From positions 2,529 to 66,528 of the IMG/VR virus record IMGVR_UViG_2859180793_000001: a stretch of DNA of 64,000 bases, one strand, 5' to 3'. This DNA comes from a virus (taxonomy: Duplodnaviria > Heunggongvirae > Uroviricota > Caudoviricetes). This document shows positions 3,281 through 59,507 of this stretch, in pieces; positions within the stretch are counted from its first letter, which is position 1, and each line of letters starts with the position of its first letter. The notes under the pieces are model-generated. The model saw only the letters and a program-made list of their open reading frames with translations. It made no database searches and was not told where the DNA came from. The translations under genes and the position numbers were made by a program.

Positions 3281-3319
3281 CTATCCCCTGGGTCGCGTCT
3301 CTAAATTTACACATGTCGC
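3281..3319 (+). promoter_or_regulatory. 37-bp conserved element, copy 1 (CTATCCCCTGGGTCGCGTCTCTAAATTTACACATGTCG)
   Basis: Near-identical to 39817..39853 (about 31 of 37 positions). Lies upstream of the cobS-like gene. Confidence 0.5.
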
Positions 3320-3366
3320 AGCGCATTGCTGCATCAACTAGCAAACACACTCTGTTGGAGATAACC

Positions 3367-8900: not shown

Positions 8901-9360
8901 CAAGAACACCGTCAAGTTCATGGTCGTGACGGACTGTCCGAGCTGGCAGGAAGAAAAGGCGGACAAGATGCTGGAGGGCGACAGCGCCACCTTCATCAAG
9001 GAAGCGCTGAAGGCGGCCGGCCTGGCGCCGGCAGAGGGCTACTACACCTCGCTGGTCAAGGCGAAGAAGGACGACAAGTTCCTGTCCAACGCGCAGATCA
9101 ACGGCTGCTCTGGTTTCCTCAAGCGGGAAATCGAACTCATCAAGCCGCCGGTGATCGTGGCGCTGGGCTCTGCTGCCATCAAGCACTTCATCCCTGGCAT
9201 CAAGGGCGGCACGGCGGAGCTGACTGGCAAGGCGATCTACGACAAGACGCTGGACGCGACCATCGTCTGTGGCTTCAACCCGCAGCAGTTGGTGTTCGAC
9301 GCGTCCAAACAGCCGGTTCTCGAAGCTGTGTTTGCGAAAGTTGCCGAGTGTTTGTCCTGA
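5992..9360 (+). CDS. dnaE: DNA polymerase III alpha subunit (DnaE-type) with C-terminal UDG family-4-like domain
   Basis: 1122 aa. PHP N-terminus. Palm motif [43 protein letters not shown]. HhH segment. The last about 200 aa ([51 protein letters not shown]) align to the family-4 uracil-DNA glycosylase fold. Confidence 0.9.
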   Translation: [1122 protein letters not shown]

Positions 9361-21141: not shown

Positions 21142-23478
21142 ATGCAAGTAATCAAGCGAGACGGCACCAGTGAGCCGTTCGACGCCACCAAGATTGACCG
21201 CTTGACCGAATACGCCACGCGCGGCCTGAAGGTCGACGTTGCCGCCCTCAAGCGCGAGACGAAGCTCCTGATTTTCGACGGCATGTCCACGAAGGACATT
21301 TTCGATGCCCAGGTGAAGGCTGCCGCCGGCCGTATCTCCGTTGAAGAGCAGGACGCGACCTTTGTGGCCGCTCGCTTCCTCCTGTCGCGCCTGTATAAGG
21401 ACGTGACCGGCGGCATCCACTACCCGACGCTGCGTGACTACCTGTTGGAAGCCGTGTCGGAAGAGCGCGTCAGCCCGCTGCTGATGGGCGGGACCGCCTT
21501 CGACTTGGACGTGCTCAACTCGATGATCCGCCCCGAGCGCGACCTCCAGTTCACCTACTTGGGCCTGCAAACGGTGGTGGACCGCTACCTCATCCGTCGT
21601 CAGGAGAAGGCCGGTGTGGCGGTGGCCCCGATCATCGAGCTGCCGCAGCATTTCTTCATGCGTGTGGCGATGGGCCTGGCGCTGGCCGAGAAGCCCGAAA
21701 TGCGCACCTACTGGGCGTGCCAGTTCTACGAAGTCCTGTCGTCGTTCGACTTCATGTCCTCGACGCCCACGCTGTTCAACTCCGGCACGCTGCACTCGCA
21801 GCTGTCCTCGTGCTACCTGAACACGGTGGCCGACCAAATCGCTGCCGACCCCGACGAGCATCCGTTCGCCTCGATCTACGGCACGATCCAGGAGTGCGCG
21901 CTGCTGTCGAAGTTCGCCGGCGGCATCGGCACCGACTGGACCCGCGTGCGCAGCGAGGGCGACCCGATCAAGAGCACCAACGGCAAGTCGAGCGGCATCG
22001 TCCCCTACATCAAGGTCTGGAACGACACGGCCGTGGCGGTCAACCAGGGCGGCAAGCGCAACGGCGCCTTTGCAGCCTACTTGGAAAGCTGGCACCCCGA
22101 CCTGTATGCCTTCCTGGAGCTGAAGAAGAACTCGGGCGACGACCGCCGCCGCGCACACGACATTTTCCCCGCCAACTGGATTCCCGACCTGCTGATGGAG
22201 CGCGTGGAGCAGGGCGGCATGTGGAGCTTCTTCTCGCCGGCCGAATACCCGGAACTGCACGACCTGTATGGCGATGCCTTCAAGGTCCGCTATGAGACGC
22301 TGGAGGCGGAGGGCAAGTATCGCTTCCAGGAACCGGCCATCGAGGTTTGGAAGAAGATGCTCGGCTTCCTGTTCGAGACGGGCCACCCCTGGATCACCTT
22401 CAAGGACGAGTGCAACCGCCGCAACCCGCAGCAGCACGTCGGCGTGATCCACAACTCGAACCTCTGCACGGAAATCACCCTGAACACGTCCGACGATGAG
22501 ACGGCGGTGTGCAACCTGGGCTCTATCAACCTGGCCCGCCACGTTGACGCCTCGCACCCGAGCGGCCTGAACGTGGACAAGCTGTTCAACACGGTGACGG
22601 TGGCCATGCGCATGCTGGACAACGTGATCGACATTAACTTCTACCCGTCCGATCGGGCGCGCAATGCCAACCTGCGCCACCGTCCGGTGGGCCTGGGCAT
22701 CATGGGCTACGCAGAGTGGCTGGTGGCGCAGGGCATCGCCTGGGAGTCGACCGAGCACCTGCTCAAGGCCGACCGCATGATGGAAACGGTGTCCTACTTC
22801 GCCATCGGCGCGTCGGTGAAGCTGGCTGCCGAGCGTGGTGCCTACGAGTCGTTCAAGGGCAGCCTGTGGGATCAGGGCATTCTGCCGATCGACACGGCCC
22901 GCAAGATCGGCACGCTGCTGCACGGCGAAGCTGAGTCCACGCTGGACTGGGACAAGATGGCTGCGCTGATCGCCAAGCACGGCATGCGCAACAGCAACTG
23001 CATGGCGATCGCACCGACCGCGACCATCTCGAACATCGTGGGCACGACGCCGACCATCGAGCCGGTCTTCCAGCGCGAGTATGAGGAGGGCAACCTGTCG
23101 GGCTCCTTCAAGGTGATCGACCCGTGCCTCAAGTATGGCCGGCCGGAACTGTGCGTCGAGTCCTACGACATTGACCAGACGTGGCTCGTCAAGGCGGCCG
23201 CGCTGCGCCAGAAGTGGATCGACCAGGCGCAGTCCCTGAACCTGTTCGCGAAGGAAGGCACGAAGGGCCGCCAGCTGTCGGAGCTGTATCTGATGGCCTG
23301 GCGCCTGGGCTGCAAGACGACCTACTACCTGCGCAGCCAGTCTTCGGACCTGGCCAAGCAGCGAGCGAAGTCGGCCAAGAAGGCGGCAGCCGCAGCAGCG
23401 GCTGCACCCGTCGATGCGATGGAGTCGGAAGTGAACCTGTGCTCCATCGACAACCCGAACTGCGAAAGCTGCCAGTAA
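21142..23478 (+). CDS. nrdA: ribonucleoside-diphosphate reductase class I alpha subunit
   Basis: 778 aa. ATP-cone N-terminus. Catalytic NLCTEI segment. C-terminal redox tail CESCQ. Confidence 0.9.
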   Translation: MQVIKRDGTSEPFDATKIDRLTEYATRGLKVDVAALKRETKLLIFDGMSTKDIFDAQVKAAAGRISVEEQDATFVAARFLLSRLYKDVTGGIHYPTLRDYLLEAVSEERVSPLLMGGTAFDLDVLNSMIRPERDLQFTYLGLQTVVDRYLIRRQEKAGVAVAPIIELPQHFFMRVAMGLALAEKPEMRTYWACQFYEVLSSFDFMSSTPTLFNSGTLHSQLSSCYLNTVADQIAADPDEHPFASIYGTIQECALLSKFAGGIGTDWTRVRSEGDPIKSTNGKSSGIVPYIKVWNDTAVAVNQGGKRNGAFAAYLESWHPDLYAFLELKKNSGDDRRRAHDIFPANWIPDLLMERVEQGGMWSFFSPAEYPELHDLYGDAFKVRYETLEAEGKYRFQEPAIEVWKKMLGFLFETGHPWITFKDECNRRNPQQHVGVIHNSNLCTEITLNTSDDETAVCNLGSINLARHVDASHPSGLNVDKLFNTVTVAMRMLDNVIDINFYPSDRARNANLRHRPVGLGIMGYAEWLVAQGIAWESTEHLLKADRMMETVSYFAIGASVKLAAERGAYESFKGSLWDQGILPIDTARKIGTLLHGEAESTLDWDKMAALIAKHGMRNSNCMAIAPTATISNIVGTTPTIEPVFQREYEEGNLSGSFKVIDPCLKYGRPELCVESYDIDQTWLVKAAALRQKWIDQAQSLNLFAKEGTKGRQLSELYLMAWRLGCKTTYYLRSQSSDLAKQRAKSAKKAAAAAAAAPVDAMESEVNLCSIDNPNCESCQ

Positions 23479-23483
23479 TCAAC

Positions 23484-23497
23484 AGTCAACATTGACA
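23484..23497 (+). promoter_or_regulatory. palindromic element AGTCAACATTGACA
   Basis: Immediately after the nrdA stop, followed by a GNRA hairpin. Confidence 0.45.
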
Positions 23498-23500
23498 ATC

Positions 23501-23520
23501 GACGGGGCGAAAGCCCCGTC
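23501..23520 (+). other. 8-bp stem GAAA-tetraloop hairpin (GACGGGGC-gaaa-GCCCCGTC)
   Basis: No trailing U-tract. Lies between nrdA and the next ORF. Confidence 0.5.
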
Positions 23521-23534
23521 ACTGGAGACCTGAC

Positions 23535-23819
23535 GTGAGCAACGTCCTTGCTTTTCCCAACCGCCGCGTGGCGCCCGTCGAGTCGATCGAGGAGCCAGAA
23601 GCCACCTCTGTCGAACCGATCGAAGCCTTGCCGGTAAGGGAGCCCGACGCAGAGCAGGCGACCAGCCCTGTGCCGAAGGTCTTGCTCCCGCTGCCAGTCT
23701 TCGAGCGCATGCTCGGCGCGCTCACCTTCTATGCCCGGGCTGGATTCGATCATGGCCGCGAAGCACGCAGCGCGCTGGGCGAGTTCACCCCGCATCACCA
23801 ACCGCAGGAATCCGCATGA
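23535..23819 (+). CDS. hypothetical protein
   Basis: GTG start with a GGAGA RBS. Overlaps the nrdB start. Confidence 0.4.
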   Translation: MSNVLAFPNRRVAPVESIEEPEATSVEPIEALPVREPDAEQATSPVPKVLLPLPVFERMLGALTFYARAGFDHGREARSALGEFTPHHQPQESA

Positions 23820-24823
23820 CAACCACCGCAGAACGAGTCAACAGCCGGCGCCTCATCGAAGGGCCGTCCGACAAACTGATGGCAATCTCCCCGCTCAAGC
23901 ACGCATGGGCGCGGGACATCCTTCAGGTCATGGAGAACAACACGTGGTTCACGAAGGACGTGGATCTGTCCCGTGACGTGAAGCAATACAAGCAGGGCGT
24001 GCTGACGCCGCGCGAGAAGGAAGCCTATGACGGTGCGCTGGCCTTCCTCTCGAACCTGGACGGCTTCCAGCTGCACAACATCACGGACAACATCGCCAAG
24101 CACGTCACCTCGCCCGAAGTGAAAATGTGTCTGGTGCGCCAGGCGTGGGAAGAAGCGCTGCACGTTGAAGCCTATTCGACGCTTGCAGAAGCAATCTGCG
24201 CTGACCCGATGGAGGTCTACATGCGCTTTGAGCGCGACGGTGTGCTCGCGGCCAAGAACGAGCACGTGCTGCGCCAGAACGCGATCTTGGACCAGACCTA
24301 CAGTCCGCGCACCTTCGCGTTGTCCACCGTCACCAACGTGGCCCTGGAAGGCATTTACTTCTTCTCGGGCTTCCTGATTTTCTACACGCTCGCCAAGAAC
24401 GGGAAGATGCTCGGCTCGGCGGACATGATCGCCTACATCCAGCGAGACGAAGAGGGCACGCACCTGGAGCTGTTCAAGCACATGTTGCAGACCCTGCAAG
24501 TCGAGAACCCTGAAATCTTTGATGCTGGCTTCTACGAGGATGCGCGCGAGTTGCTGCGTGGCGCAGTGGAGCTGGAGACCACGTGGGGCAAGCACCTGAT
24601 CGGCGGCGGCATTCTGGGTCTCACCGACCCGATCATGGAAGGCTTTGTGCAGTGGCGGGCCAACGAGTGCTGCGCGCAGTTGGGCTTCGAGCCGCTCTAT
24701 CCCGGTGTGAAGAACCCGGTGCCCTGGTTCCAGGACATTTCGCGGGTGAATGGACGAAAGAAGAACTTCTTCGAAAGCAAGGTGACGGACTACTCCGTCG
24801 GTGGCGCTCTCGAATGGGAATGA
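23816..24823 (+). CDS. nrdB: ribonucleoside-diphosphate reductase class I beta subunit
   Basis: 335 aa. Ferritin-like diiron ligands (EEALHVEAYS; EGIYFFSGF; DEEGTHLE). Confidence 0.9.
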   Translation: MTTTAERVNSRRLIEGPSDKLMAISPLKHAWARDILQVMENNTWFTKDVDLSRDVKQYKQGVLTPREKEAYDGALAFLSNLDGFQLHNITDNIAKHVTSPEVKMCLVRQAWEEALHVEAYSTLAEAICADPMEVYMRFERDGVLAAKNEHVLRQNAILDQTYSPRTFALSTVTNVALEGIYFFSGFLIFYTLAKNGKMLGSADMIAYIQRDEEGTHLELFKHMLQTLQVENPEIFDAGFYEDARELLRGAVELETTWGKHLIGGGILGLTDPIMEGFVQWRANECCAQLGFEPLYPGVKNPVPWFQDISRVNGRKKNFFESKVTDYSVGGALEWE

Positions 24824-24924: not shown

Positions 24925-25500
24925 ATGAAAAAGCACAAACGAATCTTCACAGTTGGCCTGGCCATTGGCGTTGCGCTCGCGTTCGCAGGCTGCGGCCGCA
25001 CCGAGCAGGTCGCACAGATTCCGCAGCCGCAGGTCGTGCAGCAAGCCGCACCGGCAGCCGCTGGCCAACCAGTCATCGTCAACGCCGCGCCTGCGCAGAG
25101 CGGTGGCGGCATGGGCGACATGCTGATGGGTGGCGCGATCGGCTATCTGCTGGGCTCCAGCGGCAACCGCAGCGCCCCGGTCCACGAAGAGCGCCGCGTC
25201 ACCAATGTGACGAACGTGACCAAGCACTACCACGTCACCGAAGCGCCGAAGCCGGCTGCACCGGCAGCGCAAGCGGCCACGCCAGCAGCAACGCCCGCAC
25301 CGGCGCCGGCCAAGCCCGCCTACGCGCCGACCTACGCGAACAAGCCGGCAGCGCCGACCGCCAGCTACAGCCCGAGCTACGCGAGCAAGTCGAGCACCAG
25401 CTCCAGTTCGTCCAGCTCCTCTTGGAGTCGCCCGAGCAGTTCGTCCTACTCGTCGATGAGTCGCAGCAGTTCCAGCAGTTTCAGCAGCGGTCGCCGATGA
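24925..25500 (+). CDS. lipoprotein (Pro/Ala/Ser-rich)
   Basis: Start ATG with a CAGGAGA RBS. Signal peptide plus lipobox LAFAGC. Low-complexity C-terminal half. Confidence 0.55.
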   Translation: MKKHKRIFTVGLAIGVALAFAGCGRTEQVAQIPQPQVVQQAAPAAAGQPVIVNAAPAQSGGGMGDMLMGGAIGYLLGSSGNRSAPVHEERRVTNVTNVTKHYHVTEAPKPAAPAAQAATPAATPAPAPAKPAYAPTYANKPAAPTASYSPSYASKSSTSSSSSSSSWSRPSSSSYSSMSRSSSSSFSSGRR

Positions 25501-44869: not shown

Positions 44870-45559
44870 TTAACGAGTCGGTTTGAGCGAAGCAATGGCT
44901 GCGTCTACGGTCCTAGCAAGTTCCTCGGCTTGCGGGTCTGGCTTCGCAGGTTCAGAAGGCGCGGCCTTGCGCCGGCCACGAGCAACACGAGCAGGCAGCT
45001 CAAACAGAAGCTCGGCCAACGCCTCGGCGAACTTCAGGACACGCCGGGCATCCTCCAGGGTCGGCTTGGGAAGTTCATCGTCGGCATGCCGCTCATTGTT
45101 GGCCTCCAGACGAACCTCGTGCGCCCAGTCCTTCATGTCAGGAGTAATGAGGTGATCGGCAGCAGCCTGTTCGATTCGCTTGTGAAGGTTCCCGGTCTTG
45201 TAGCCCTTCTCCTTGAGCATCCAGTCCACAGCAGTCGCAGAACCAATGATGCTAAGGCGCGGCGTCGCCAAGGCAGCATGAGCATCCGCAAGGCTCTCAC
45301 GCGCACGCTCGGGAATGTCCATCGAGTAAGTCTTCGGCTTAGGCCAGGTGTTCACGACGGTCAGGAACTTGGAAGCCTGCACGACCGTAAGCAGGCCACA
45401 AGTGCCGCACTGAAGGGCAAACACCCAACCGCCGTCATCGGCCGCAACTATGTCCTTGTAGACCATCGAGAGGTTCGGCTTGGCGATCAGACAATGCGGA
45501 CACCGATGAAGTTGAAGATAGTTCGGCAGCGAGTTTTCAAAGGCCATAGCAGGGAGCAC
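44870..45559 (-). CDS. zinc-ribbon + DUF4145-like domain protein
   Basis: N-terminal C-x2-C...C-x2-C. C-terminal GNLHKRIEQAAADHLITPDMKDWAHEVRLEANNERH resembles the DUF4145 signature (K..L..RI..L.....I.......H.lR..GN.aAH). Confidence 0.5.
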   Translation of the reverse strand: MLPAMAFENSLPNYLQLHRCPHCLIAKPNLSMVYKDIVAADDGGWVFALQCGTCGLLTVVQASKFLTVVNTWPKPKTYSMDIPERARESLADAHAALATPRLSIIGSATAVDWMLKEKGYKTGNLHKRIEQAAADHLITPDMKDWAHEVRLEANNERHADDELPKPTLEDARRVLKFAEALAELLFELPARVARGRRKAAPSEPAKPDPQAEELARTVDAAIASLKPTR

Positions 45560-50710: not shown

Positions 50711-52282
50711 TCAGGCGGCCAGCTTCGTGAGGCCAAGCCCCTCGAAGTCGAAGTCCGCGCCGGCGGGCAGGATGTTCTCGGCGAACCCCGGCGTGCCCTC
50801 AATGATGGCGCGGCGCTGCTGCGCGTGCGCCTTCAGGTGGCCGTTGTAGGCGTCCTCGAAGTCGACCACGAGGCAGACGTTGGGTCCGAACTTCTTCGCA
50901 CGCAGGCCGCGACCGATGCGCTGGCGCAGCGACACTTCAGCCTTGCCGCCGCCCGCGAGAATCACCATGCCGACCGCCGGCACGTCCACGCCCACGTCGA
51001 GGATGGTGGTGCCGATGAGCACGTCGAGCTGACCCTTGGCCAGGCGGGAGAGCGCGGCCTTGCGCTCCTTCTGGTCGTTCTCACCCCGGATGAACGCGGC
51101 ACGCACGCCGGCGGCCTTGAGCATCTCGACGAGCTTCTCGCCATGCTTGGTCTGCTGGACCAGCACCATGACCGTCATGCCGAGCTTGGTGCCGCGCGTG
51201 GCCTCGTAGACGATCGCCGCATTGCGCTCAATCGCATCCACGATGCCCAGACGATAGGCAGCCTGCCACGCGGTGCCACGGTAGAGCTTGGGCGGCTGCT
51301 GTGTGAGCGGGATGATCTTGAAGTAGGGCTTGGCCAGGATGCCGCGCTCGATCAGCATCTGCTCGCTCACCTTGATGCCGATCGGACCGAACGCAGCCAT
51401 CAGCCGCATGTTCGACTCTTCGTCGTCCTTCATGAACGGCGTCGCCGTCAGCGCAAGGCGGTAGTGGGCGTTTTTGCAGTGCTGGAGGATCTCGTAGTAG
51501 CTGTTGCCGCCAGCCTCGTGCGCCTCTTCGCCGATCACCAGCTCGAACTTGGAGAGCAGGTCGATCGTCTGCTGCCGTCGGCGGGCCTGCGCATTCTGCT
51601 TCTCCACGTCATCGTCCGGGTCGGGCAGCGCGAGCCGTGCGACCAAGGTCTGCACCATCCCCACGCACACCTTCTTGACCGCTTGGCGCTCGTTACCGTG
51701 CGCGTCGACGATCGTGTGACCGAACTGACCGTCACCGAGCACCGAGACCGGGATGCCCATGTCGCGCTCGATCGCGTCCTTCATCTGATACATGAGGATC
51801 GAGCGGGTGGTCAGGAACAGGGTGGGGCGACCGATGCGGGCGATGGCCAGCTTGGCCACCTTCGACTTGCCCGCGCCCGTGGCCAGGCGCGCGATGATCT
51901 GGCCGTGCCGCAGCAGTCGCTCGATCGTGTCGGGCTGATAGTCGTAGCGCGGATCGTCCGGGAAGTCGTCGACCTTGGGGTTCTCCGGCCCCAGCGGCCC
52001 TGGCAGCGGCCGACGCACGGTGTTCACCGTGTAGCCCTTGCGGCGCAGCGCTGCGGCCACGAACTGCGTGAAGCCGGCGGGGAATGTGCTCTTGCGGAAG
52101 TCGTAAAAGGACGAGCGGCCATCCCACCCGCCGGACTTGAACGCCATCGTGTTCTCGGCGCCGTCCACGCGGTAGGAGAGCACCCGCTGCACCTCTAGCG
52201 CGACAGCTCGCGAAGGCTGATGCAGCTTGGCGATGACCGCGTTGCTGGCGATGGTTACGACTTCACTCATTGGCCTTGCCAT
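50711..52282 (-). CDS. SF2 DEAD/DEAH-box DNA helicase (UvsW/RecG-like candidate)
   Basis: Walker A ATGAGKSKVA. DEAH-like VIGEEAHEAG. Motif III LTATP. Motif VI QRIGRGLR. 523 aa. Confidence 0.75.
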   Translation of the reverse strand: MARPMSEVVTIASNAVIAKLHQPSRAVALEVQRVLSYRVDGAENTMAFKSGGWDGRSSFYDFRKSTFPAGFTQFVAAALRRKGYTVNTVRRPLPGPLGPENPKVDDFPDDPRYDYQPDTIERLLRHGQIIARLATGAGKSKVAKLAIARIGRPTLFLTTRSILMYQMKDAIERDMGIPVSVLGDGQFGHTIVDAHGNERQAVKKVCVGMVQTLVARLALPDPDDDVEKQNAQARRRQQTIDLLSKFELVIGEEAHEAGGNSYYEILQHCKNAHYRLALTATPFMKDDEESNMRLMAAFGPIGIKVSEQMLIERGILAKPYFKIIPLTQQPPKLYRGTAWQAAYRLGIVDAIERNAAIVYEATRGTKLGMTVMVLVQQTKHGEKLVEMLKAAGVRAAFIRGENDQKERKAALSRLAKGQLDVLIGTTILDVGVDVPAVGMVILAGGGKAEVSLRQRIGRGLRAKKFGPNVCLVVDFEDAYNGHLKAHAQQRRAIIEGTPGFAENILPAGADFDFEGLGLTKLAA

Positions 52283-52307
52283 CCTATAGTTGGAAGAGTA
52301 AAGTATA

Positions 52308-52344: not shown

Positions 52345-52986
52345 ATGTCGCAATTCCCGACGGTGGACCCGAAGCTGTTGCGCCACAACCCGTGGAACAC
52401 CAACGTCGTGTCGCCGGACAACGAGGCCAAGCTGGACGAATCGGTCGAGCGGCTGGGCATGTTCAAGCCGATCATCGTGCGCGAGCTGCCCGACGGCACG
52501 CTGGAAATCCTGGGCGGGGCACACCGCCGCGATGCTGCGATTCGCAAGAAGTTGGCCTCTGTTCCGATCATGAATCTGGGTCGCATCTCTGACCAGCGGG
52601 CCAAAGAAATCAGCCTCGTGGACAACGGCCGCTACGGCGCGGACGACACGCTGCGCCTGGCAGAGCTGCTGGATGGTTTGGGCAATCCCGACGAGCTGTC
52701 GAAGTTCATGCCCTACACCGACGCCGACTTCGCGTCGATCTTCTCGTCAGTGAGTATTGCGCTGGACGAGCTAGACATACCCGATGACGACGAGCCCGCG
52801 ACGCATTTGCCCACCGAAAAGAAGGTGCAGACGCACCAGATCATGCGGTTCAAGGTGCCGGTGGAGGACGTGGGTCGGGTGACAGACGTGATCGAACGGA
52901 TCATGAAGACCCAGCGCTTCACAGAAGAGGACAGCCTCACCAATGCCGGCAACGCGCTGGTCCACCTCTGCACCAGGGGAGCGTGA
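52345..52986 (+). CDS. ParB-like nuclease domain protein
   Basis: LEILGGAHRRDAA is a ParB/sulfiredoxin-fold motif. 213 aa. Confidence 0.6.
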   Translation: MSQFPTVDPKLLRHNPWNTNVVSPDNEAKLDESVERLGMFKPIIVRELPDGTLEILGGAHRRDAAIRKKLASVPIMNLGRISDQRAKEISLVDNGRYGADDTLRLAELLDGLGNPDELSKFMPYTDADFASIFSSVSIALDELDIPDDDEPATHLPTEKKVQTHQIMRFKVPVEDVGRVTDVIERIMKTQRFTEEDSLTNAGNALVHLCTRGA

Positions 52987-53161
52987 GTTGGCTCGCTGTG
53001 ACCACCCCTTTCCCGAGTGCCAGACCTGTGCGAACCGCGAGTTCGATCCGCAGCAGTGCGACAGCTGTGTGGACGGCTCCAATTACGAGTTCGACGACGA
53101 GGATTACCTGACCATTCAGCATTTCCTGCAACCCTTCATGAAGCTCAAGGAAGCTGCATGA
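52943..53161 (+). CDS. small Cys4 zinc-finger protein
   Basis: CDHPFPECQTC...CDSC. The true start may be TTG at about 52988, after the upstream stop. Confidence 0.35.
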   Translation: MPATRWSTSAPGERELARCDHPFPECQTCANREFDPQQCDSCVDGSNYEFDDEDYLTIQHFLQPFMKLKEAA

Positions 53162-53805
53162 CCGAGACCAAGCCCAACATCCAGTCGTGGGACATTGCGC
53201 GGCTGACCCCCTACGACAAAAACGTCAAGAAGCACGACGCCGCGCAGGTGTCGAAGATCGCCGAGTCGATCCGCCGCTTCAAGTGGACGCAACCGATCGT
53301 GGTCGACCGCAATGGCGTGATTATCAATGGCCACGGCCGGCGCCTGGCCGCCATCGAGCTGGGGCTCACGCAGGTGCCAGTGTGGGTGCGCGATGACCTG
53401 ACCGACGAGGAAGTGCGTGCCGCGCGCCTGGCGGACAACCGGGTCGCGCTGTCGGACATTGACGCCGACATGCTCCAGGAGGAGCTGGCCGCCTTGAATC
53501 TGGATCTCACCGGGATCTTCGACGACAAGGAGCTGAACTTCCTGACCGCCGATCTGGGCGAGATGAACGAAAGCGCGTTCGTGGACGACCTTGAAGCGGA
53601 GATTGCCGAGCAGGTGGCGGAGACCAAGCGCGAGATCGAGGCCACCGACGTGCGCGACGTGAAGATCGCCAAGGCGCTGGGCTTTTCCTCGATCCGAGGC
53701 AAGGACGAGCGCGTCGTCGCACGCTTCATGGCTGCCGCCGAGGCCGAGACTGGTCTCATGGGTGCGGACGCCTTCATCGCACACCTCAAAACGCTGGCCG
53801 GCTGA
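53158..53805 (+). CDS. ParB-like N-terminal domain protein
   Basis: ATGA overlap with the upstream gene. IVVDRNGVIINGHGRRLAAIELGL is a ParB-Nterm motif. Confidence 0.6.
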   Translation: MTETKPNIQSWDIARLTPYDKNVKKHDAAQVSKIAESIRRFKWTQPIVVDRNGVIINGHGRRLAAIELGLTQVPVWVRDDLTDEEVRAARLADNRVALSDIDADMLQEELAALNLDLTGIFDDKELNFLTADLGEMNESAFVDDLEAEIAEQVAETKREIEATDVRDVKIAKALGFSSIRGKDERVVARFMAAAEAETGLMGADAFIAHLKTLAG

Positions 53806-53809
53806 TACC

Positions 53810-53828
53810 AGTCAGCATTGACTATCAA
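53810..53828 (+). promoter_or_regulatory. palindromic promoter-like element AGTCAGCATTGACT+ATCAAC
   Basis: 5 nt before ATG 53833. Confidence 0.5.
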
Positions 53829-53832
53829 CGCC

Positions 53833-53943
53833 ATGACGACTTTTCTCGTGATCGCCTTCGTCGCGCTGATTGCGCTGCTGCTGGCGATTGCTGGGGTGAG
53901 CACCTGGGCCTTCTTCAACATCGACAAGTTCACGATCGGATGA
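53833..53943 (+). CDS. tiny membrane protein (36 aa)
   Basis: MTTFLVIAFVALIALLLAIAGVSTWAFFNIDKFTIG. ATGA overlap with the next gene. Below the ORF-track length cutoff. Confidence 0.3.
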   Translation: MTTFLVIAFVALIALLLAIAGVSTWAFFNIDKFTIG

Positions 53944-54590
53944 TTTATACCGTCAACAAGCGCTTTACATCGAGCGTAGAGCGCACAGAGCGCGTCCTTG
54001 AAGTCGCAGAGGGGTTCGGGCTCGGGCTCGACGACAAGGAGTTCGTCGTGTTCGACAACCAGCCCATCGAGGTCAACCAGGGTGACGTGTGCTACGTGAC
54101 CGGCCAGTCCGGCTCGGGCAAGTCCACCGTGCTGCGCGAACTGAAGGCTCAAATGGAAGCCGAGGGCCTGAAGGTCGCCGACATTGACGCCGTGCAGCTT
54201 CTGGACAGGCCGCTGATCGACCAGATCGGCACGAGCACCCAGGAGGCGCTGGGCCTGCTGTCGATCGCGGGCTTGAATGACGCCTACCTCTTCATCCGCA
54301 AGCCGTCGGAGCTATCTGACGGCCAGCGCTACCGCTTCCGCCTGGCCAAGCTCATCGAGAGCGGGGCGGGCGTGTGGGTCGCTGACGAATTTCTGGCCGT
54401 GGTCGATCGCATCACAGCCAAGGTGATCGCCTTCAACCTGCAAAAGGTGGCCCGCCAGCGCGGCGCCACGCTCATCGTTGCCACGACGCACCGTGACCTG
54501 CGGGACGACCTGGCACCCAACCTCTACATCGAAAAGCGCTACCGGGAAAAGATCGAGACCGTCCGCGCGCCTGAAGGATTCAAGGAATGA
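53940..54590 (+). CDS. ABC-type ATPase domain protein
   Basis: Walker A GQSGSGKST. Signature-like LSDGQRYRFRLA. Walker B VWVADEF. Confidence 0.6.
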   Translation: MIYTVNKRFTSSVERTERVLEVAEGFGLGLDDKEFVVFDNQPIEVNQGDVCYVTGQSGSGKSTVLRELKAQMEAEGLKVADIDAVQLLDRPLIDQIGTSTQEALGLLSIAGLNDAYLFIRKPSELSDGQRYRFRLAKLIESGAGVWVADEFLAVVDRITAKVIAFNLQKVARQRGATLIVATTHRDLRDDLAPNLYIEKRYREKIETVRAPEGFKE

Positions 54591-54931
54591 CCACCATCAA
54601 CACCTCCGCAGCAACCTTTGAGCAAGACGTGATCGAGCCGGCCAAGGACGGCCCTGTCGTGGTTGCGTTCACCGCCGACTGGTGCGGTCCCTGCAAGCTG
54701 CTCAAGCCCAAGCTGATCGAGCTGGCCACGGCCTGGGAATTCCGCCTGGCCGTCGTCAATGCTGGCGTGGACCGTGAGCTTGCCGCTGCCTATGGTGTGC
54801 GCGGCGTGCCCACGGTGCTCGTGCTTGAGAGCGGCGCCGAGCGTCTGCGCTTCAGCGGCGACCGCGCCGAAAGCGAGCTGAAGAAGTTGCTCCGCGCTGA
54901 AGGACTCGCCCAAACCGAACTGGAGTTCTGA
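54587..54931 (+). CDS. thioredoxin
   Basis: WCGPCK active site. 114 aa. Confidence 0.8.
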   Translation: MTTINTSAATFEQDVIEPAKDGPVVVAFTADWCGPCKLLKPKLIELATAWEFRLAVVNAGVDRELAAAYGVRGVPTVLVLESGAERLRFSGDRAESELKKLLRAEGLAQTELEF

Positions 54932-55049
54932 CATGCCGCTCGCGCTCTACTTGCCGATCTTCCTCACCGTCGTGCTGAGTGCCTGGGCCAATGGCCACCG
55001 CAAGCGCCGCGATGACGACGACTGGCCGAGCGGGGCAGCGAGCGCATGA
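54932..55049 (+). CDS. tiny membrane protein (38 aa)
   Basis: MPLALYLPIFLTVVLSAWANGHRKRRDDDDWPSGAASA. ATGA overlap with the next gene. Confidence 0.3.
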
Positions 55050-55423
55050 GCTGGCTGGAACTGGCGGCGCTGGCAGGCGCCACCTTCTTTTCGGTGTTCC
55101 TGATGGGCATCCAGTCCCGGAACGTCAACCAGGGCCGCTACCTCGCATCCGTGGTCACTTCCTTCGGCATCAGCGCGGGCAACTTCACGTTCGCGCGCTA
55201 CGCCTCGACTGGAAGCATGACCGCATTCCTCACGAGCGCCGCCGGCGGCATGGCCGGCATCGCGTTCGCAATCTGGTTTTACCAACGATTTATGGAGAAG
55301 CGTCATGGCCGCCAACCCAAAGACCAAGCCGCCGGTCAACCCGATCAAGACCGTCGCCGACAAGCTGAACAAGGCCAACGGCAAGCCGCTGGACATTTCG
55401 AAAACCAAGGCGCCGCTGCGTGA
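55046..55423 (+). CDS. membrane protein (3 TM helices); 3' end ambiguous
   Basis: The hydrophobic part ends near 55300. The tail overlaps the alternative-frame ORF 55306..55464 (MAANPKTKPPVNPIKTVADKLNKANGKPLDISK..., with a GGAG RBS). Confidence 0.35.
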   Translation: MSWLELAALAGATFFSVFLMGIQSRNVNQGRYLASVVTSFGISAGNFTFARYASTGSMTAFLTSAAGGMAGIAFAIWFYQRFMEKRHGRQPKDQAAGQPDQDRRRQAEQGQRQAAGHFENQGAAA

Positions 55424-55459
55424 TTCGGGCACGACGCTGCCGCCGCTCGTGAAGGGGAA

Positions 55460-55723
55460 GTGATGCTGACATTCGGAGCCGCAATTGAGGCCCTCAAGCA
55501 GGGCAAGCGCACGTGCCGCACAGGCTGGAACGGCAAGGGCATGTGGCTCGCGCTCGTGCTCGGCTACGACTACAACCCGCAGGCTGATCGCGGCACCGTG
55601 CATGCGCTCGGCTGCGAGAAGCTGCCCTGGATCGGCATGAAGACGGCCGACAACAAGTTCGTGCCGTGGCTTGCCTCGCAGACCGACGTGCTCGCCGAAG
55701 ACTGGCAAATCCTGGAGCCCTGA
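55460..55723 (+). CDS. DUF2829-like protein (Tad2-like Thoeris anti-defence candidate)
   Basis: FGAAIEALKQGKRTCRTGWNGKGMWLALV ... PWLASQTDVLAEDWQIL recalls the DUF2829 pattern (ea.kalk.GkkvrR.GWngkg ... W.psq.D.la.DW). 87 aa. Confidence 0.5.
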   Translation: MMLTFGAAIEALKQGKRTCRTGWNGKGMWLALVLGYDYNPQADRGTVHALGCEKLPWIGMKTADNKFVPWLASQTDVLAEDWQILEP

Positions 55724-55724
55724 C

Positions 55725-56636
55725 ATGGTTGTCGCTGACAGCGAGGACGTGCTCATCGAGCGGCATCCCACGCCCAAGCGGCACATGCTGTCGCTGCTGC
55801 CGGACATTTACGTCGAGGCGGGCACCAAGGCGGACTGGGATCTGCTCCATGAGCTGCACTACAAGGCCGAGAGCCTACCCATCGGACCGCGTTTCTTCCG
55901 CTGCGTCATGCATGGTCAGACGATCGGGGTGGGCGTCATGTCCATCACGACGATGCTGTCCGCCGGCCGCAACGAAGCATTCACCTACCTGCGTCCCAAC
56001 GTAGGCGGCAAGGACAGCCGCATGATCAATCAGCACCGCGCCAACTGGATGAACGAGTTCGCCTGCTGCAACTCGCGCCTGGTGCTGGACACTATGTTCC
56101 GTGGCGCTGGGATCTCCTACCGCATGCAGAACCTGATGATGCGCATGTCGGGCAAGCGGGTGATCGAATTCCAGTCGTCGATGAGCAAGTTCAACCCATT
56201 CGCGGCCAAGGCGGGCATTCGCTTCACGAAGCCGCGCAAAGCGGCCAAGTATGGGGCGGGCCTGGCGTTCTTCCGCCGTTGGTTCGAGTGTGTGCCGTCG
56301 GACTACGTGGGCGTGATGGAAGAGCTGGAGGCCATGCCGGCGGCTGTGCGCGACAAGTGCGTGACCGAGATGCGGGCCTTCTACTACGCCAATTCGAGCC
56401 GCGAGAAGTCCGGCAACCAGCGCTTTGACGCTCGTGAGCGGGTGGCCACGATGGAAGTGGGCCGCCTGCTGAAGAAGCTCCAGCAGCTCGTGTTCGCCAG
56501 CCCGCTCTACGGCACTTACGAGAACCCTGACTACGACCTCCAAAGCGGCCCACGCGAGCTGCCCCCTCGATTGCCCCTGTTGGCGTTCGACAATCAGCCC
56601 GTAGACGCGCCGCTCGACCTTTCCAAGATCAGCTGA
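55725..56636 (+). CDS. GNAT-like acetyltransferase-fold protein
   Basis: FRGAGISYRMQNLMM matches the GNAT motif-A core R-x-x-G-x-[GA]. FNPFAAKAGIRF also fits. Start 2 nt after the upstream stop. Confidence 0.4.
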   Translation: MVVADSEDVLIERHPTPKRHMLSLLPDIYVEAGTKADWDLLHELHYKAESLPIGPRFFRCVMHGQTIGVGVMSITTMLSAGRNEAFTYLRPNVGGKDSRMINQHRANWMNEFACCNSRLVLDTMFRGAGISYRMQNLMMRMSGKRVIEFQSSMSKFNPFAAKAGIRFTKPRKAAKYGAGLAFFRRWFECVPSDYVGVMEELEAMPAAVRDKCVTEMRAFYYANSSREKSGNQRFDARERVATMEVGRLLKKLQQLVFASPLYGTYENPDYDLQSGPRELPPRLPLLAFDNQPVDAPLDLSKIS

Positions 56637-57462: not shown

Positions 57463-57481
57463 AGTCAGCACTGACTTGACA
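57463..57481 (+). promoter_or_regulatory. palindromic element AGTCAGCACTGACT followed by TTGACA ... TACAGT
   Basis: Possible sigma-70-like -35/-10 pair (17-bp spacer) just before the terminator. Confidence 0.45.
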
Positions 57482-57531
57482 TAGGATGCCGGGGCGGATA
57501 CAGTGGCGCCACAACTCCGGTTATCTCCAAT

Positions 57532-57591: not shown

Positions 57592-58239
57592 GTGAGCAAG
57601 GCAACCAAGACAACCACCGCTCCGAAGAGCAAGTATGCGCGCCTCACGCCGAAGCAGTGGGCCGAGGCGGAAGCTCTGTGGGAGTCCGGCGAGGTCACGC
57701 TCGACGACCTGGCTGCCCGCTTCGGGAAAAACCGCTCCGTCTTCTCCAACCACTTCGCCAAGACCGGCATCACCAAGGGGGCCAAGAGCGAGGCGAACAA
57801 GCGCCGTGTCGCCGAAGAGGTCGCCAAGGCGGCTATCTCCGACTCGACGGTGCTGGCCGCGCGGATCAAGGAGACCAAGGAGGAGCACTACAAGATGGCC
57901 ACCGCGCTGGCCAAGCTCACCTGGAACGAGATCCTCCAGGCGAAGAACGACGCGCGGCCGTTCTCCACGGCGATGAACAACCTCAAGGCGCTGGACAACG
58001 CCATGACCGTGCTGAAGAAAGCGCGGGAGGAGCGTTATGCCGTGCTGGGCCTGGACCGCGATGACCACGTGGACGAGAACGGGTTGCCGGAGCTGGTGAT
58101 CTCCGAACTGACCGCCGAGCAGGTCGAGGCGCTGCGCTCGCGCGATGAGGACGAGATCGACACTGACGTGGAGCTGACGGACGGTCCACCGCCGGCAGAG
58201 ACCACAGGCGAGGACGACATTGTGCAGGAGGGTGACTGA
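57592..58239 (+). CDS. terminase small subunit
   Basis: GTG start. N-terminal HTH ARLTPKQWAEAEALWESGEVTLDDLAARFG. Acidic C-terminus. Directly upstream of the large terminase. Confidence 0.6.
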   Translation: MSKATKTTTAPKSKYARLTPKQWAEAEALWESGEVTLDDLAARFGKNRSVFSNHFAKTGITKGAKSEANKRRVAEEVAKAAISDSTVLAARIKETKEEHYKMATALAKLTWNEILQAKNDARPFSTAMNNLKALDNAMTVLKKAREERYAVLGLDRDDHVDENGLPELVISELTAEQVEALRSRDEDEIDTDVELTDGPPPAETTGEDDIVQEGD

Positions 58240-59507
58240 TGGCTGCGCCAGCCAAGTCGCTCTCGCTGCACAAGAAGCAGATGGAGGTCTACAGCTCGAA
58301 GCACCGCTTCCGGGTTGTGGTGGCCGGCCGCCGCTGGGGCAAGACGGCGCTCTCGCGCGTGCTCATCATCAAGATGGCACAGGTGAAGAAGCGCAAGATT
58401 TGGTATGTGGCGCCGACCTACCGGATGGCCAAGCAGATCATGTGGATCGACCTGCTCGACGCCATTCCGAAGGCATGGATTCGCAAAGTCAACGAGACCA
58501 CGCTGACCATCACCCTGGTGAACCAGACCCGCATCGAGCTGAAAGGCGCTGACAAGCCTGACTCGCTGCGCGGCGTCGGTATCCACTTCCTCGTGCTGGA
58601 CGAGTTCCAGGACATGAACGAGGAGACCTGGACCCAGGTGCTGCGCCCGACGCTGGCCGACACCGGCGGCCATGCCATCTTCATCGGCACGCCCAAGGCA
58701 TACAACTACCTGCACACGGTCTACCAGTTGGGCCAGCGCGGCGCGACCTACGTGGATGCGCGCGGGCGCACGCGGGTGAACGAGTGGATGAGCTGGCAGT
58801 TCCCCACCATCACCTCGCCGTTCATCCCCGTCAGCGAACTGGAAGCCGCGCGCCGCGACATGGACGAGAAGTCGTTCAAGCAGGAGTTCGAGGCGTCCTT
58901 CGAGACCATGAGCGGCCGGGTCTACTACCCTTTCGACCGCGCCGTGCATGTCGGCAAGTATCCGTTCAACCCGAAGCTGCCCATCTGGATCGGCATGGAC
59001 TTCAACATCGACCCCATGTCGACGGTGATTTTCCAGCCGCAGCCCAGCGGCGAGCTGTGGGCGGTCGACGAGATCGTCCAGTTCGGCTCGAATACCGAGG
59101 AGATCTGCGAGGCGATCGACGCGAAGTATTGGCGCCACCAGAACCAGATCGTCATTTACCCCGATCCGGCGGGCGGTCAGCGCCAGCACGCGCGGGGCGA
59201 GACCGACCTGGACATTCTGCGAGAGAAGGGCTTCCGGCGCATCAAATACCGCCGCAAGCACCCGCTGGTGGCCGACCGGGTGAACGCGGTCAACCGGATG
59301 CTGCGCTCGGCCGACAACACCGTGCGCCTGCGCATCGACGAGGGCTGCAAGCACTTCATCAAGAGCCTGGAGCAGACCATCTACAAGCCTGGCTCGCGCG
59401 ACGTGGACAAAGCCGCCGGCACCGAGCACTCGGCTGACGCCGCTGGCTATTGCATCGACCTGGAATTCCCGGTGCGCCGCATCGAGGTTGGTGGCCTGTC
59501 CGTTTAA
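58239..59507 (+). CDS. terminase large subunit
   Basis: Walker A AGRRWGKT. Walker B LVLDEF. C-terminal RNase-H-like nuclease region. Confidence 0.85.
   Translation: MAAPAKSLSLHKKQMEVYSSKHRFRVVVAGRRWGKTALSRVLIIKMAQVKKRKIWYVAPTYRMAKQIMWIDLLDAIPKAWIRKVNETTLTITLVNQTRIELKGADKPDSLRGVGIHFLVLDEFQDMNEETWTQVLRPTLADTGGHAIFIGTPKAYNYLHTVYQLGQRGATYVDARGRTRVNEWMSWQFPTITSPFIPVSELEAARRDMDEKSFKQEFEASFETMSGRVYYPFDRAVHVGKYPFNPKLPIWIGMDFNIDPMSTVIFQPQPSGELWAVDEIVQFGSNTEEICEAIDAKYWRHQNQIVIYPDPAGGQRQHARGETDLDILREKGFRRIKYRRKHPLVADRVNAVNRMLRSADNTVRLRIDEGCKHFIKSLEQTIYKPGSRDVDKAAGTEHSADAAGYCIDLEFPVRRIEVGGLSV

What the first reader, a model, noticed from the sequence alone, without database searches (positions are those of the whole stretch)
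55460..55723. DUF2829/Tad2-like small protein next to GNAT-like and thioredoxin genes, just upstream of the packaging module
The 87-aa protein shows the GW..kG motif and the C-terminal PWxxSQxDxLAEDW signature I associate with DUF2829. That is the family of Tad2, which sequesters Thoeris gcADPR signals. It would make this a phage anti-defence locus.
Basis: partly seen in the sequence, partly recalled or inferred. Interest (0 to 1): 0.55.

Follow-up and report, generated by a model that had tools for sequence, protein, structure and literature searches.

The report
Prophage Tad2-family immune-signal sponge gene
A small gene in a large Ralstonia pickettii prophage is a clear member of the Tad2 (DUF2829) family, whose proteins soak up the alarm molecules bacteria make during phage infection; it is a well-supported but ordinary new member of a known anti-defence family, and its activity has not been tested.

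Summary
An 86/87-aa ORF at 55463(55460)-55723 (+) carries the GWNGKG and PWLASQTDVLAEDW motifs. It matches Pfam PF11195 "Tad2-like" over the whole profile (E=1.2e-25, 90 bits, cutoff 25).

An AlphaFold model (pLDDT 86) matches only Tad2-family crystal structures (24 hits, TM 0.68-0.81). Eight of ten SPO1 Tad2 gcADPR-contact residues are identical. All five mutationally validated HgmTad2 gcADPR-pocket residues are identical. None of the nine HgmTad2 cGG-pocket residues is.

The neighbours are as stated: a thioredoxin two genes upstream, a GNAT-fold gene immediately downstream, and the packaging genes about 1.9 kb downstream.

The window is a ~110-kb-class Nickievirus-like prophage. The exact protein is already in NCBI as "DUF2829 domain-containing protein".

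Among 45 non-redundant relatives of this phage family, 8 carry a Tad2-like gene and 9 carry an Acb2-like sponge gene in the same 4-kb module. None carries both. This marks an anti-defence hotspot.

Ligand specificity cannot be read from family membership, because tested Tad2 proteins block Thoeris I/II/IV, CBASS or Pycsar. The SQTD motif is shared with all five tested proteins that have it. All five inhibit type I Thoeris, so 3'cADPR (1''-3' gcADPR) is the most likely ligand. Nothing was tested experimentally.

The parts
55463..55723 (+). Tad2-like (DUF2829) CDS, 86 aa. An alternative GTG start at 55460 gives 87 aa. Stop is TGA 55721-55723.
   Evidence: ORF. PF11195 E=1.2e-25. Identical NCBI protein P0001. 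AF2 model pLDDT 86.3. Foldseek hits only Tad2 structures.
55452..55459 (+). Purine-rich Shine-Dalgarno-like AAGGGGAA just upstream of the ATG.
   Evidence: Read from the sequence. Inference only.
55305..55463 (+). 52-aa Lys/Pro-rich ORF. Its TGA stop overlaps the Tad2 ATG (TGATG), suggesting translational coupling. No family hit.
   Evidence: Called as a gene in both R. pickettii genomes. Conserved in relatives together with the TM protein.
55046..55423 (+). Small membrane protein, holin-like by PHROG 7045. It is 125 aa here and 89 aa in the sister prophage, where a stop follows ...EKRHGR; here that codon reads Gln.
   Evidence: phrog_7045 E=1e-12. Sequence comparison. Present in 26 of 59 related loci.
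54587..54931 (+). Thioredoxin, a backbone gene of this phage family.
   Evidence: PF00085 E=1.1e-20. Conserved in relatives.
53940..54590 (+). ABC-type ATPase, a backbone gene. Probable partner of the GNAT-fold protein.
   Evidence: PF00005 and AAA hits. phrog_293 E=1.2e-44. NCBIfam ABC ATPase hits, all below cutoff.
55725..56636 (+). 303-aa GNAT-fold protein, a backbone gene. Its start lies 1 nt after the Tad2 stop.
   Evidence: No Pfam or NCBIfam hit. AF2 pLDDT 83. Foldseek top hits all GNAT acetyltransferases, including TmcA and NAT10. JGI name. dN/dS 0.06.
52262..52304 (+). Two overlapping sigma-70-like promoter matches in the divergent region between the helicase (-) and ParB (+). Candidate promoter of the ParB-to-126-aa gene string that contains the Tad2-like gene.
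   Evidence: Consensus matches only: 3 found against 1.2 expected.
57592..59507 (+). Packaging genes: TerS-like DNA-binding protein (57592-58239) and large terminase (58239-59507). A promoter-like site at 57476-57504 precedes them.
   Evidence: phrog_867 E=2.3e-59. Terminase_6C/6N and phrog_2. Promoter-like site.

Best explanation
The gene encodes a stand-alone Tad2-family 'sponge'. By analogy with SPO1 Tad2 it is expected to form a homotetramer. Pockets at the protomer interfaces would bind and sequester a TIR-derived ADP-ribose signal, most likely 3'cADPR (1''-3' gcADPR) made by ThsB of type I Thoeris. ThsA would then never be activated and the phage would escape abortive infection.

The gene is an accessory insertion into a conserved ParB-ParB-ATPase-thioredoxin-GNAT module of a ~110-kb-class Nickievirus-like temperate phage integrated in Ralstonia pickettii.

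Shown here: family membership, fold, conservation of the gcADPR-pocket residues, and accessory/hotspot status. Inferred: tetramer formation, ligand identity, inhibition of Thoeris, and expression timing.
For: (1) Family: PF11195 over the full length, E=1.2e-25. PDB sequence hits are only Tad2 proteins: ModTad2 7e-19, SPO1 Tad2 1.6e-15, then SptTad2 and HgmTad2/AcrIIA7.

(2) Fold: the AF2 model (pLDDT 86, pTM 0.75) gives 24 significant Foldseek hits, all Tad2 structures, with TM 0.68-0.81. The next hit has E=0.5.

(3) Pocket: the SPO1 contacts W25 N26 I63 T65 D67 H71 W73 S76 T78 D79 (10.1101/2023.05.01.538930) map to W22 N23 M59 T61 D63 V67 W69 S72 T74 D75, so 8 of 10 are identical. The five HgmTad2 residues whose mutation was used to disable the gcADPR site (W21 N22 S90 T92 D93; PMC10680739) are all identical. 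These positions are invariant or at least 90% conserved in 76 homologs.

(4) Phenotype correlation: all 6 tested proteins with GWNGK plus W[LV][AP]SQ[TA]D inhibit type I Thoeris (SPO1, HgmTad2, Tad2_70, _71, _82, _83). The type II-only inhibitors have S at the T78 position. The closest tested relative is Tad2_70 (49% identity), which inhibits type I Thoeris and Pycsar (Table S2 of 10.1101/2025.08.24.671296).

(5) Context: ZY21 and several metagenomic relatives lack the gene at this position. In 45 non-redundant lineages, 8 have Tad2-like, 9 have Acb2-like and none has both, all within the same 4-kb module. The L009 Acb2 homolog matches PaMx33 Acb2 at E=2e-23.

(6) Selection: dN/dS is 0.33.

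(7) Host genus: SIR2-ThsA/TIR-ThsB Thoeris is reported in the genus, in R. solanacearum GMI1000 and IBSBF1503 and on ICEs (PMC7251935 and PMC13540745).
Against: - There is no experiment.
- Specificity in this family is not predictable from the SPO1 contact set alone. ModTad2 keeps 7 of 10 of these residues yet does not inhibit type I Thoeris (10.1101/2024.01.03.573942).
- 5 of 18 tested Tad2 proteins inhibited nothing.
- The motif-phenotype correlation rests on only 6 proteins.
- The beta2-beta3 loop (about residues 33-53) forms the dimer interface or second pocket in solved homologs. Here it is clade-specific and modelled with low confidence (pLDDT 59-73).
- Oligomeric state could not be modelled.
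- Whether R. pickettii strains carry Thoeris was not determined.
- The gene lies in a string that ends near the late packaging genes, so early expression is not established.
Confidence: 0.7

Rival explanations
1. It is a dual or multi-signal sponge. Besides a Thoeris signal, it binds Pycsar cyclic mononucleotides (cUMP/cCMP) in a second pocket at the V-shaped dimer interface, as Tad2_70 and MoTad2 do.
For: The two closest tested relatives by sequence, Tad2_70 (49% identity) and MoTad2 (45%), are the only two Tad2 proteins found to inhibit Pycsar. The loop that builds that interface is conserved within this protein's own clade (LG.xKLPW).
Against: The residues lining the MoTad2 cUMP pocket are not given in the text I could read. 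The loop sequence here resembles neither Tad2_70 nor MoTad2, and its model confidence is low. Tad2_82 is almost as close (47%) and inhibits only type I Thoeris.
Confidence: 0.25
2. It is a type II Thoeris (His-ADPR) sponge like ModTad2, and not a gcADPR sponge.
For: ModTad2 is the best PDB sequence match (E=7e-19, against 1.6e-15 for SPO1 Tad2). His-ADPR is bound in the same interface pocket as gcADPR.
Against: At the position of SPO1 T78, the type II-only inhibitors (MoTad2, Tad2_76) have Ser within a PS[VS]SD motif. This protein has the ASQTD form found in type I inhibitors. Structurally, SPO1 Tad2 chains match at least as well as ModTad2 (TM up to 0.81 against 0.76).
Confidence: 0.12
3. It is a CBASS cyclic-dinucleotide (cGG/cGAMP) sponge of the HgmTad2/SptTad2 type.
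For: Same family. HgmTad2 and SptTad2 are significant sequence and fold matches.
Against: None of the 9 HgmTad2 cGG-contact residues is conserved, and 3 fall in alignment gaps. The W-to-W spacing of 47 residues is that of the short forms (SPO1 and Mo, 48) and not HgmTad2 (66), so the insertion domain that builds the CDN cavity is missing (PMC10680739).
Confidence: 0.05
4. It is an anti-CRISPR (AcrIIA7-like), as some phage records annotate homologs.
For: DUF2829 includes AcrIIA7. Two E. coli phage records label homologs 'anti-CRISPR protein'.
Against: Li et al. could not reproduce any Cas9 inhibition by HgmTad2/AcrIIA7 or other Tad2 homologs, either in vitro or in vivo (PMC10680739).
Confidence: 0.02
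5. It has the Tad2 fold but no sponge activity against any known signalling system. It may be inactive, or it may bind an uncharacterised molecule.
For: 5 of 18 tested Tad2 proteins were inactive against all seven systems.
Against: Four of the five inactive proteins lack the WN or SxxD pocket residues or are truncated. The fifth (Tad2_78) keeps WN, S and D but has Q at the T78 position. This protein keeps the pocket and is under purifying selection.
Confidence: 0.1

Closest known systems
SPO1 Tad2 (Gp34.65; PDB 8SME/8SMF/8SMG)
   Same: Same Pfam family and about the same size (86 against 89 aa). 41% identity. Model TM 0.69-0.81. 8 of 10 gcADPR-contact residues identical, including W25, N26, W73, S76, T78 and D79. 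Same W..SQTDVLAEDW C-terminal motif.
   Different: The beta2-beta3 loop is unrelated and lacks the stacking F44. H71 becomes V and I63 becomes M. The host is a Gram-negative betaproteobacterium. It is encoded in a temperate prophage, not a lytic Bacillus myovirus.
Tad2_70 (IMG/VR metagenomic; Hadary et al. 2025)
   Same: Closest experimentally tested relative: 49% identity, 82 bits. Identical GWNGKGMWLAL and WLASQTD segments.
   Different: Tad2_70 is 97 aa with a longer, unrelated loop. Its Pycsar inhibition cannot be transferred to this protein.
ModTad2 / MoTad2 (Myroides odoratus prophage; PDB 8V3E, 9EIB)
   Same: Best PDB sequence hit (E=7e-19). Prophage-encoded and about the same length. 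45% identity.
   Different: ModTad2 has TWTPSVSD where this protein has PWLASQTD. ModTad2 inhibits type II Thoeris and Pycsar but not type I.
HgmTad2 / AcrIIA7 (PDB 8KBI-8KBM)
   Same: The gcADPR pocket residues W21, N22, S90, T92 and D93 are all identical.
   Different: This protein lacks the long insertion domain and all cGG-contact residues. HgmTad2 also has an N-terminal extension (151 aa native).
Acb2 (PaMx33 / T4)
   Same: Functionally analogous small oligomeric sponge. Homologs occupy the same genome module in sister lineages of this phage family.
   Different: Unrelated fold and sequence. No Acb2 homolog is present in this window.

Membership tests
Tad2 / DUF2829 (Pfam PF11195) | Significant full-length match to the family profile, above the curated cutoff | tested here: met
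   E=1.2e-25, 90.2 bits against a cutoff of 25, profile positions 2-73 of 73.
Tad2 / DUF2829 (Pfam PF11195) | [quoted passage not shown] | tested here: met
   AF2 model elements are H4-12, E16-19, E28-32, E56-60, E66-68, H73-77, E81-84. All 24 significant Foldseek PDB hits are Tad2 structures, TM 0.68-0.81.
Tad2 / DUF2829 (Pfam PF11195) | Conserved gcADPR-pocket residues (SPO1 W25, N26, W73, S76, T78, D79; HgmTad2 W21, N22, S90, T92, D93) | tested here: met
   8 of 10 SPO1 contacts and 5 of 5 HgmTad2 residues are identical. They are invariant or at least 90% conserved in 76 homologs.
Tad2 / DUF2829 (Pfam PF11195) | Short protein encoded by a phage or prophage | tested here: met
   86 aa. It lies in a prophage with DNA polymerase, RNR, terminase, portal and capsid genes, syntenic with Pseudomonas phage ZY21.
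Tad2 / DUF2829 (Pfam PF11195) | Homotetramer with ligand pockets at protomer interfaces | not testable with these tools
   Only monomer prediction was available. Needs AF-multimer/AF3 or SEC-MALS.
Tad2 / DUF2829 (Pfam PF11195) | Binds a TIR-derived signal and inhibits Thoeris defence | not testable with these tools
   Requires binding and plaque assays.
HgmTad2-type dual gcADPR + cyclic-dinucleotide sponge | Long beta2-beta5 insertion domain and cGG contacts (R31, P32, D34, L36, K46, S47, F70, T71, N85) | tested here: not met
   0 of 9 residues conserved, with 3 in gaps. W-to-W spacing is 47 residues against 66 in HgmTad2.
ModTad2-type type II Thoeris (His-ADPR) / Pycsar sponge | His-ADPR pocket and cUMP pocket residues | tested here: inconclusive
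   The published contact residues are only in figures or in a paper that is not held. The only usable discriminator is T74, where ModTad2 and Tad2_76 have Ser. That points away from this subgroup.
AcrIIA7 anti-CRISPR | Inhibition of Cas9 | not testable with these tools
   The activity could not be reproduced for family members in PMC10680739.
GNAT acetyltransferase (the 303-aa neighbour at 55725-56636) | GNAT fold | tested here: met
   Foldseek top hits are all GNAT enzymes (E about 2e-4, probability 1.0, target TM 0.4-0.6). There is no Pfam or NCBIfam sequence hit, so this is fold-level only. The acetyl-CoA site was not examined.

The most novel reading that the evidence does not exclude
The clade-specific loop between beta2 and beta3 (YDYNP...LGCxKLPW, with near-invariant L54, P55 and W56) may build a second pocket at the V-shaped dimer interface. 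That is the site other Tad2 proteins use for cGG or cUMP. The pocket would bind a signal not yet assigned to any Tad2, for example from an uncharacterised Burkholderiales signalling defence system. The protein would then be a dual sponge with a new specificity.
Probability: 0.12. Interest if true: 0.55.

Novelty: new member of a known kind. Interest (0 to 1): 0.27.

Why it matters
Practically, this gives a confident functional label, a Tad2-family immune-signal sponge most likely directed against type I Thoeris, to a gene that NCBI lists only as "DUF2829 domain-containing protein". It also places a counter-defence gene in a large temperate phage of Ralstonia, a genus in which Thoeris occurs on mobile elements.

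The more useful by-product is the context. In this Nickievirus-like phage family, the ParB-ATPase-thioredoxin-GNAT module is a hotspot where Tad2 and Acb2 sponge genes alternate and never co-occur. The other small unknown genes in those slots are therefore reasonable candidates for new counter-defence genes. None of this changes what is known about how Tad2 works.

Tried and rejected
- NCBIfam gave no hit for the Tad2-like or the 303-aa protein.
- PADLOC gave no hit for the Tad2-like protein. This is expected, because that library covers defence systems and not anti-defence genes. The helicase and ATPase hits there are generic domain matches to backbone genes.
- Megablast against cultured phages found only 74-80% identical fragments of TerL and portal in Pseudomonas Nickievirus phages. 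No cultured phage has a Tad2 homolog above 60% identity.
- I tried to obtain the ModTad2 His-ADPR and cUMP contact residues. They are not in the text or supplements I could read, a search of that preprint for the citation found nothing, and the DOI I recalled for the published Nature paper is not held. Type I and type II specificity could therefore only be compared through the T78-position residue.
- I tested whether the ~50-aa N-terminal extension of the closest fused homologs is Acb4 or Sequestin. There was no Pfam hit at E<=0.1 and no PDB hit.
- I looked for other sponge genes (Acb2, Tad1) in the window by tblastn and found none.
- HgmTad2-like cGG binding is rejected on residues and loop length.
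- Anti-CRISPR function is rejected on published negative data.
- The minus-strand ORFs overlapping the gene (54947..55807 and 55494..55859) were not tested separately. I treated them as high-GC shadow ORFs because the plus-strand frame carries the profile hit and is the one conserved in relatives.

Full report
**Observation**

The ORF is real and sits at the stated coordinates. It runs 55460..55723 on the + strand and gives 87 aa from GTG. The second codon, ATG at 55463, is the start used in the public annotation. The 86-aa product is 100% identical to NCBI "DUF2829 domain-containing protein [Ralstonia pickettii]" (P0001). The window is identical, with 0 mismatches over the 20,261-bp locus, to contig PKQE01000001.1 (1.7 Mb) of assembly GCA_002849525.1.

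Several features support a translated gene:
- A purine-rich AAGGGGAA precedes the ATG.
- The stop codon of the upstream 52-aa ORF overlaps the ATG (TGATG).
- The next gene starts one base after the stop.
- Against the sister prophage in R. pickettii CP104381 (83% protein identity), dN/dS is 0.33. The substitutions fall in the N-terminal helix and the variable loop, and none falls at a ligand-contact position.

**Family and fold**

- Pfam PF11195 ("Tad2-like, Thoeris anti-defense 2-like domain") matches over the whole profile with E=1.2e-25 and 90.2 bits, against a curated cutoff of 25.
- The only solved structures with sequence similarity are Tad2 proteins: ModTad2 (8V3E/9EIB, E=7e-19), SPO1 Gp34.65, which is the original Tad2 (8SME, 1.6e-15), SptTad2, and HgmTad2/AcrIIA7.
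- An AlphaFold2 model built on 76 homologs has mean pLDDT 86.3 and pTM 0.75. Only the loop at residues ~33-53 has low confidence.
- Foldseek against the PDB gives 24 significant hits. All are Tad2-family chains (TM 0.68-0.81). The next hit has E=0.5.

**Ligand pocket**

Yirmiya et al. (10.1101/2023.05.01.538930) list the SPO1 Tad2 residues that hold 1''-3' gcADPR:
- W25 and W73 (van der Waals contacts);
- N26 and D79 (phosphates and hydroxyls);
- T78, I63 and T65 (adenine);
- D67, H71 and S76 (water-mediated contacts).

In the alignment these map to W22, W69, N23, D75, T74, M59, T61, D63, V67 and S72. Eight of ten are identical. The two changes are I to M and the water-coordinating H to V.

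Li et al. (PMC10680739) used W21A/N22A and S90A/T92A/D93A mutants of HgmTad2 as the gcADPR-site mutants. All five residues are identical here. These positions are invariant or at least 90% conserved in the 76-sequence alignment, while the loop is variable.

The HgmTad2 cyclic-di-GMP pocket is different. None of its nine residues (R31, P32, D34, L36, K46, S47, F70, T71, N85) is matched, and the long insertion that builds the pocket is absent.

**What membership does and does not tell us**

The family is now known to be functionally diverse. ModTad2 binds His-ADPR and blocks type II Thoeris but not type I (10.1101/2024.01.03.573942). In an 84-protein screen (10.1101/2025.08.24.671296), Tad2 homologs inhibited type I, II or IV Thoeris, CBASS or Pycsar. 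Five of the 18 Tad2 proteins tested inhibited nothing (Table S2).

I aligned all tested proteins with the window protein. The closest are:
- Tad2_70, 49% identity (type I Thoeris plus both Pycsar systems);
- MoTad2, 45% (type II plus Pycsar);
- Tad2_82, 47% (type I);
- Tad2_83, 42% (type I);
- SPO1 Tad2, 41% (type I).

All six tested proteins that combine GWNGK with W-[LV]-[AP]-S-Q-[TA]-D inhibit type I Thoeris. The five with the exact SQTD form, which this protein has, all do. The two type II-only inhibitors have Ser at the T78 position. Two proteins with V or Q there do not inhibit type I.

This is a correlation over few proteins. It makes 3'cADPR (1''-3' gcADPR) the most likely ligand and leaves a second specificity open.

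**Genomic context**

The window is part of a large phage-type genome. It carries CobS/CobT-like proteins, a 1122-aa DNA polymerase, SbcC and both RNR subunits, then terminase, portal and capsid. It is integrated in a 1.7-Mb R. pickettii contig.

The local gene order is: helicase (-), ParB, a 57-aa gene, ParB, ABC-type ATPase, thioredoxin, TM protein, 52-aa ORF, Tad2-like, 303-aa protein, wHTH, a 126-aa gene, TerS-like, TerL, portal.

The same backbone is found in Pseudomonas phage ZY21 (genus Nickievirus, 112 kb), where nothing lies between the thioredoxin-position gene and the 293-aa gene. It is also found in metagenomic contigs of 72-157 kb, in which that interval holds 0 to 4 small genes.

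The Tad2-like gene occupies this slot only in the window, in the sister R. pickettii prophage, and in one 110-kb contig.

I used the 303-aa protein as an anchor to fetch 80 IMG/VR loci. Of these, 67 loci (counting the window) cover ParB1 to GNAT, and they collapse to 45 lineages at 95% identity of the GNAT-like protein. Eight lineages, including this one, carry a Tad2-like gene. Nine carry an Acb2-like gene. None carries both, and 28 carry neither. The sponge genes sit in at least four different intergenic slots of the same ~4-kb module. One metagenomic relative outside that IMG/VR set (L009) carries an Acb2 homolog that is 41% identical to PaMx33 Acb2 (E=2e-23).

The gene is therefore an accessory insertion in a module that repeatedly acquires immune-signal sponges. 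This is independent support for an anti-defence role.

Consensus scans place promoter-like sites at 52262-52304 and at 57476-57504, so the gene may be transcribed with the ParB-to-GNAT string rather than with the packaging genes. These are pattern matches only.

- Thioredoxin is confirmed (PF00085, E=1.1e-20), but it is two genes away.
- The "GNAT-like" gene is the 303-aa protein immediately downstream. It has no Pfam, NCBIfam or PDB sequence hit. Its AF2 model (pLDDT 83) has GNAT acetyltransferases as all of its top Foldseek hits, including TmcA and NAT10. JGI labels homologs "ABC-type ATPase with predicted acetyltransferase domain".
- Both genes belong to the conserved backbone. The GNAT-like gene has dN/dS 0.06. 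Neither is part of the variable anti-defence cargo.

**Host plausibility**

Thoeris with a SIR2-type ThsA and a TIR ThsB has been reported in R. solanacearum GMI1000 and IBSBF1503 (PMC7251935) and on integrative conjugative elements (PMC13540745). I could not determine whether R. pickettii strains carry it.

**Verdict**

This is a new, sequence-divergent member of the Tad2 sponge family. It is at most 60% identical to anything in cultured phages and 49% identical to the closest tested protein. It most likely sequesters the type I Thoeris signal.

It is not a new kind of system. Pfam already names the family and NCBI already annotates the domain. Oligomeric state, ligand and phenotype remain untested.

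Noticed in passing
window 52345-56636; related loci L014-L093, L005-L013: The ParB-ParB-ATPase-thioredoxin-GNAT module of this Nickievirus-like phage family is a hotspot for sponge genes. In 45 non-redundant lineages, 8 carry Tad2-like, 9 carry Acb2-like and none carries both. The genes sit in at least four different slots. Other small unknown genes share those slots.
   Followed up: partly
L001:10263-10691 and L006:3525-4004: In the sister R. pickettii prophage and in one 110-kb contig, a 142/159-aa protein with an HELAH (HExxH metalloprotease-like) motif is inserted directly after the Tad2-like gene. It is absent from the window and from all 80 IMG/VR loci. It has no Pfam or NCBIfam hit. It is a candidate further accessory or counter-defence gene.
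   Followed up: partly
Homologs P0003, P0005, P0010, P0014, P0021, P0053; L007:480-866: The closest homologs (66-81% identical in the Tad2 domain) carry a ~50-60-aa N-terminal extension with a conserved GY.V.Y.DGY.SWSP..F..AYR core. It has no Pfam or PDB match. Tad2 is known to be fused to other sponge domains (Acb4, Sequestin), so this could be an undescribed sponge domain.
   Followed up: partly
window 53940-54590 and 55725-56636: An ABC-type ATPase and a GNAT-fold protein are conserved as a split pair across the phage family. Together they resemble the fused 'ABC-type ATPase with acetyltransferase domain' proteins. The GNAT model also hits TmcA and NAT10, which are ATPase-coupled cytidine acetyltransferases. 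Their function in the phage is unknown.
   Followed up: partly
window 55046-55423 versus L001:9584-9853: The small membrane protein (PHROG 'holin') is 89 aa in the sister prophage. Here it reads on for 36 more codons because the stop position is a Gln codon, so it overlaps the 52-aa ORF. The public gene calls for this genome call no gene there. In L009 the TM protein and the 52-aa ORF are called as a single 142-aa product.
   Followed up: partly
window 1-64000: The whole window is phage-like and almost entirely on the + strand: CobT-like 1219-3243, CobS/MoxR-like 3313-4560, DNA polymerase 5992-9360, SbcC-like 17098-19041, RNR large and small subunits 21142-24823. It is a ~110-kb-class Nickievirus-like prophage in a Ralstonia chromosome-sized contig. 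I did not see this family described as temperate.
   Followed up: partly
window 25243-25329 (-): ARAGORN calls an 87-nt tRNA-Arg(GCG) on the minus strand in a plus-strand gene block. It is unusually long for tRNA-Arg and may be a false positive or an atypical tRNA.
   Followed up: no
window 44870-45559 (-): A minus-strand 228-aa ORF with DUF4145 (PF13643, E=4e-11) lies in a lower-GC stretch (0.57) of the prophage. It has no PADLOC hit. It may be a moron gene.
   Followed up: partly
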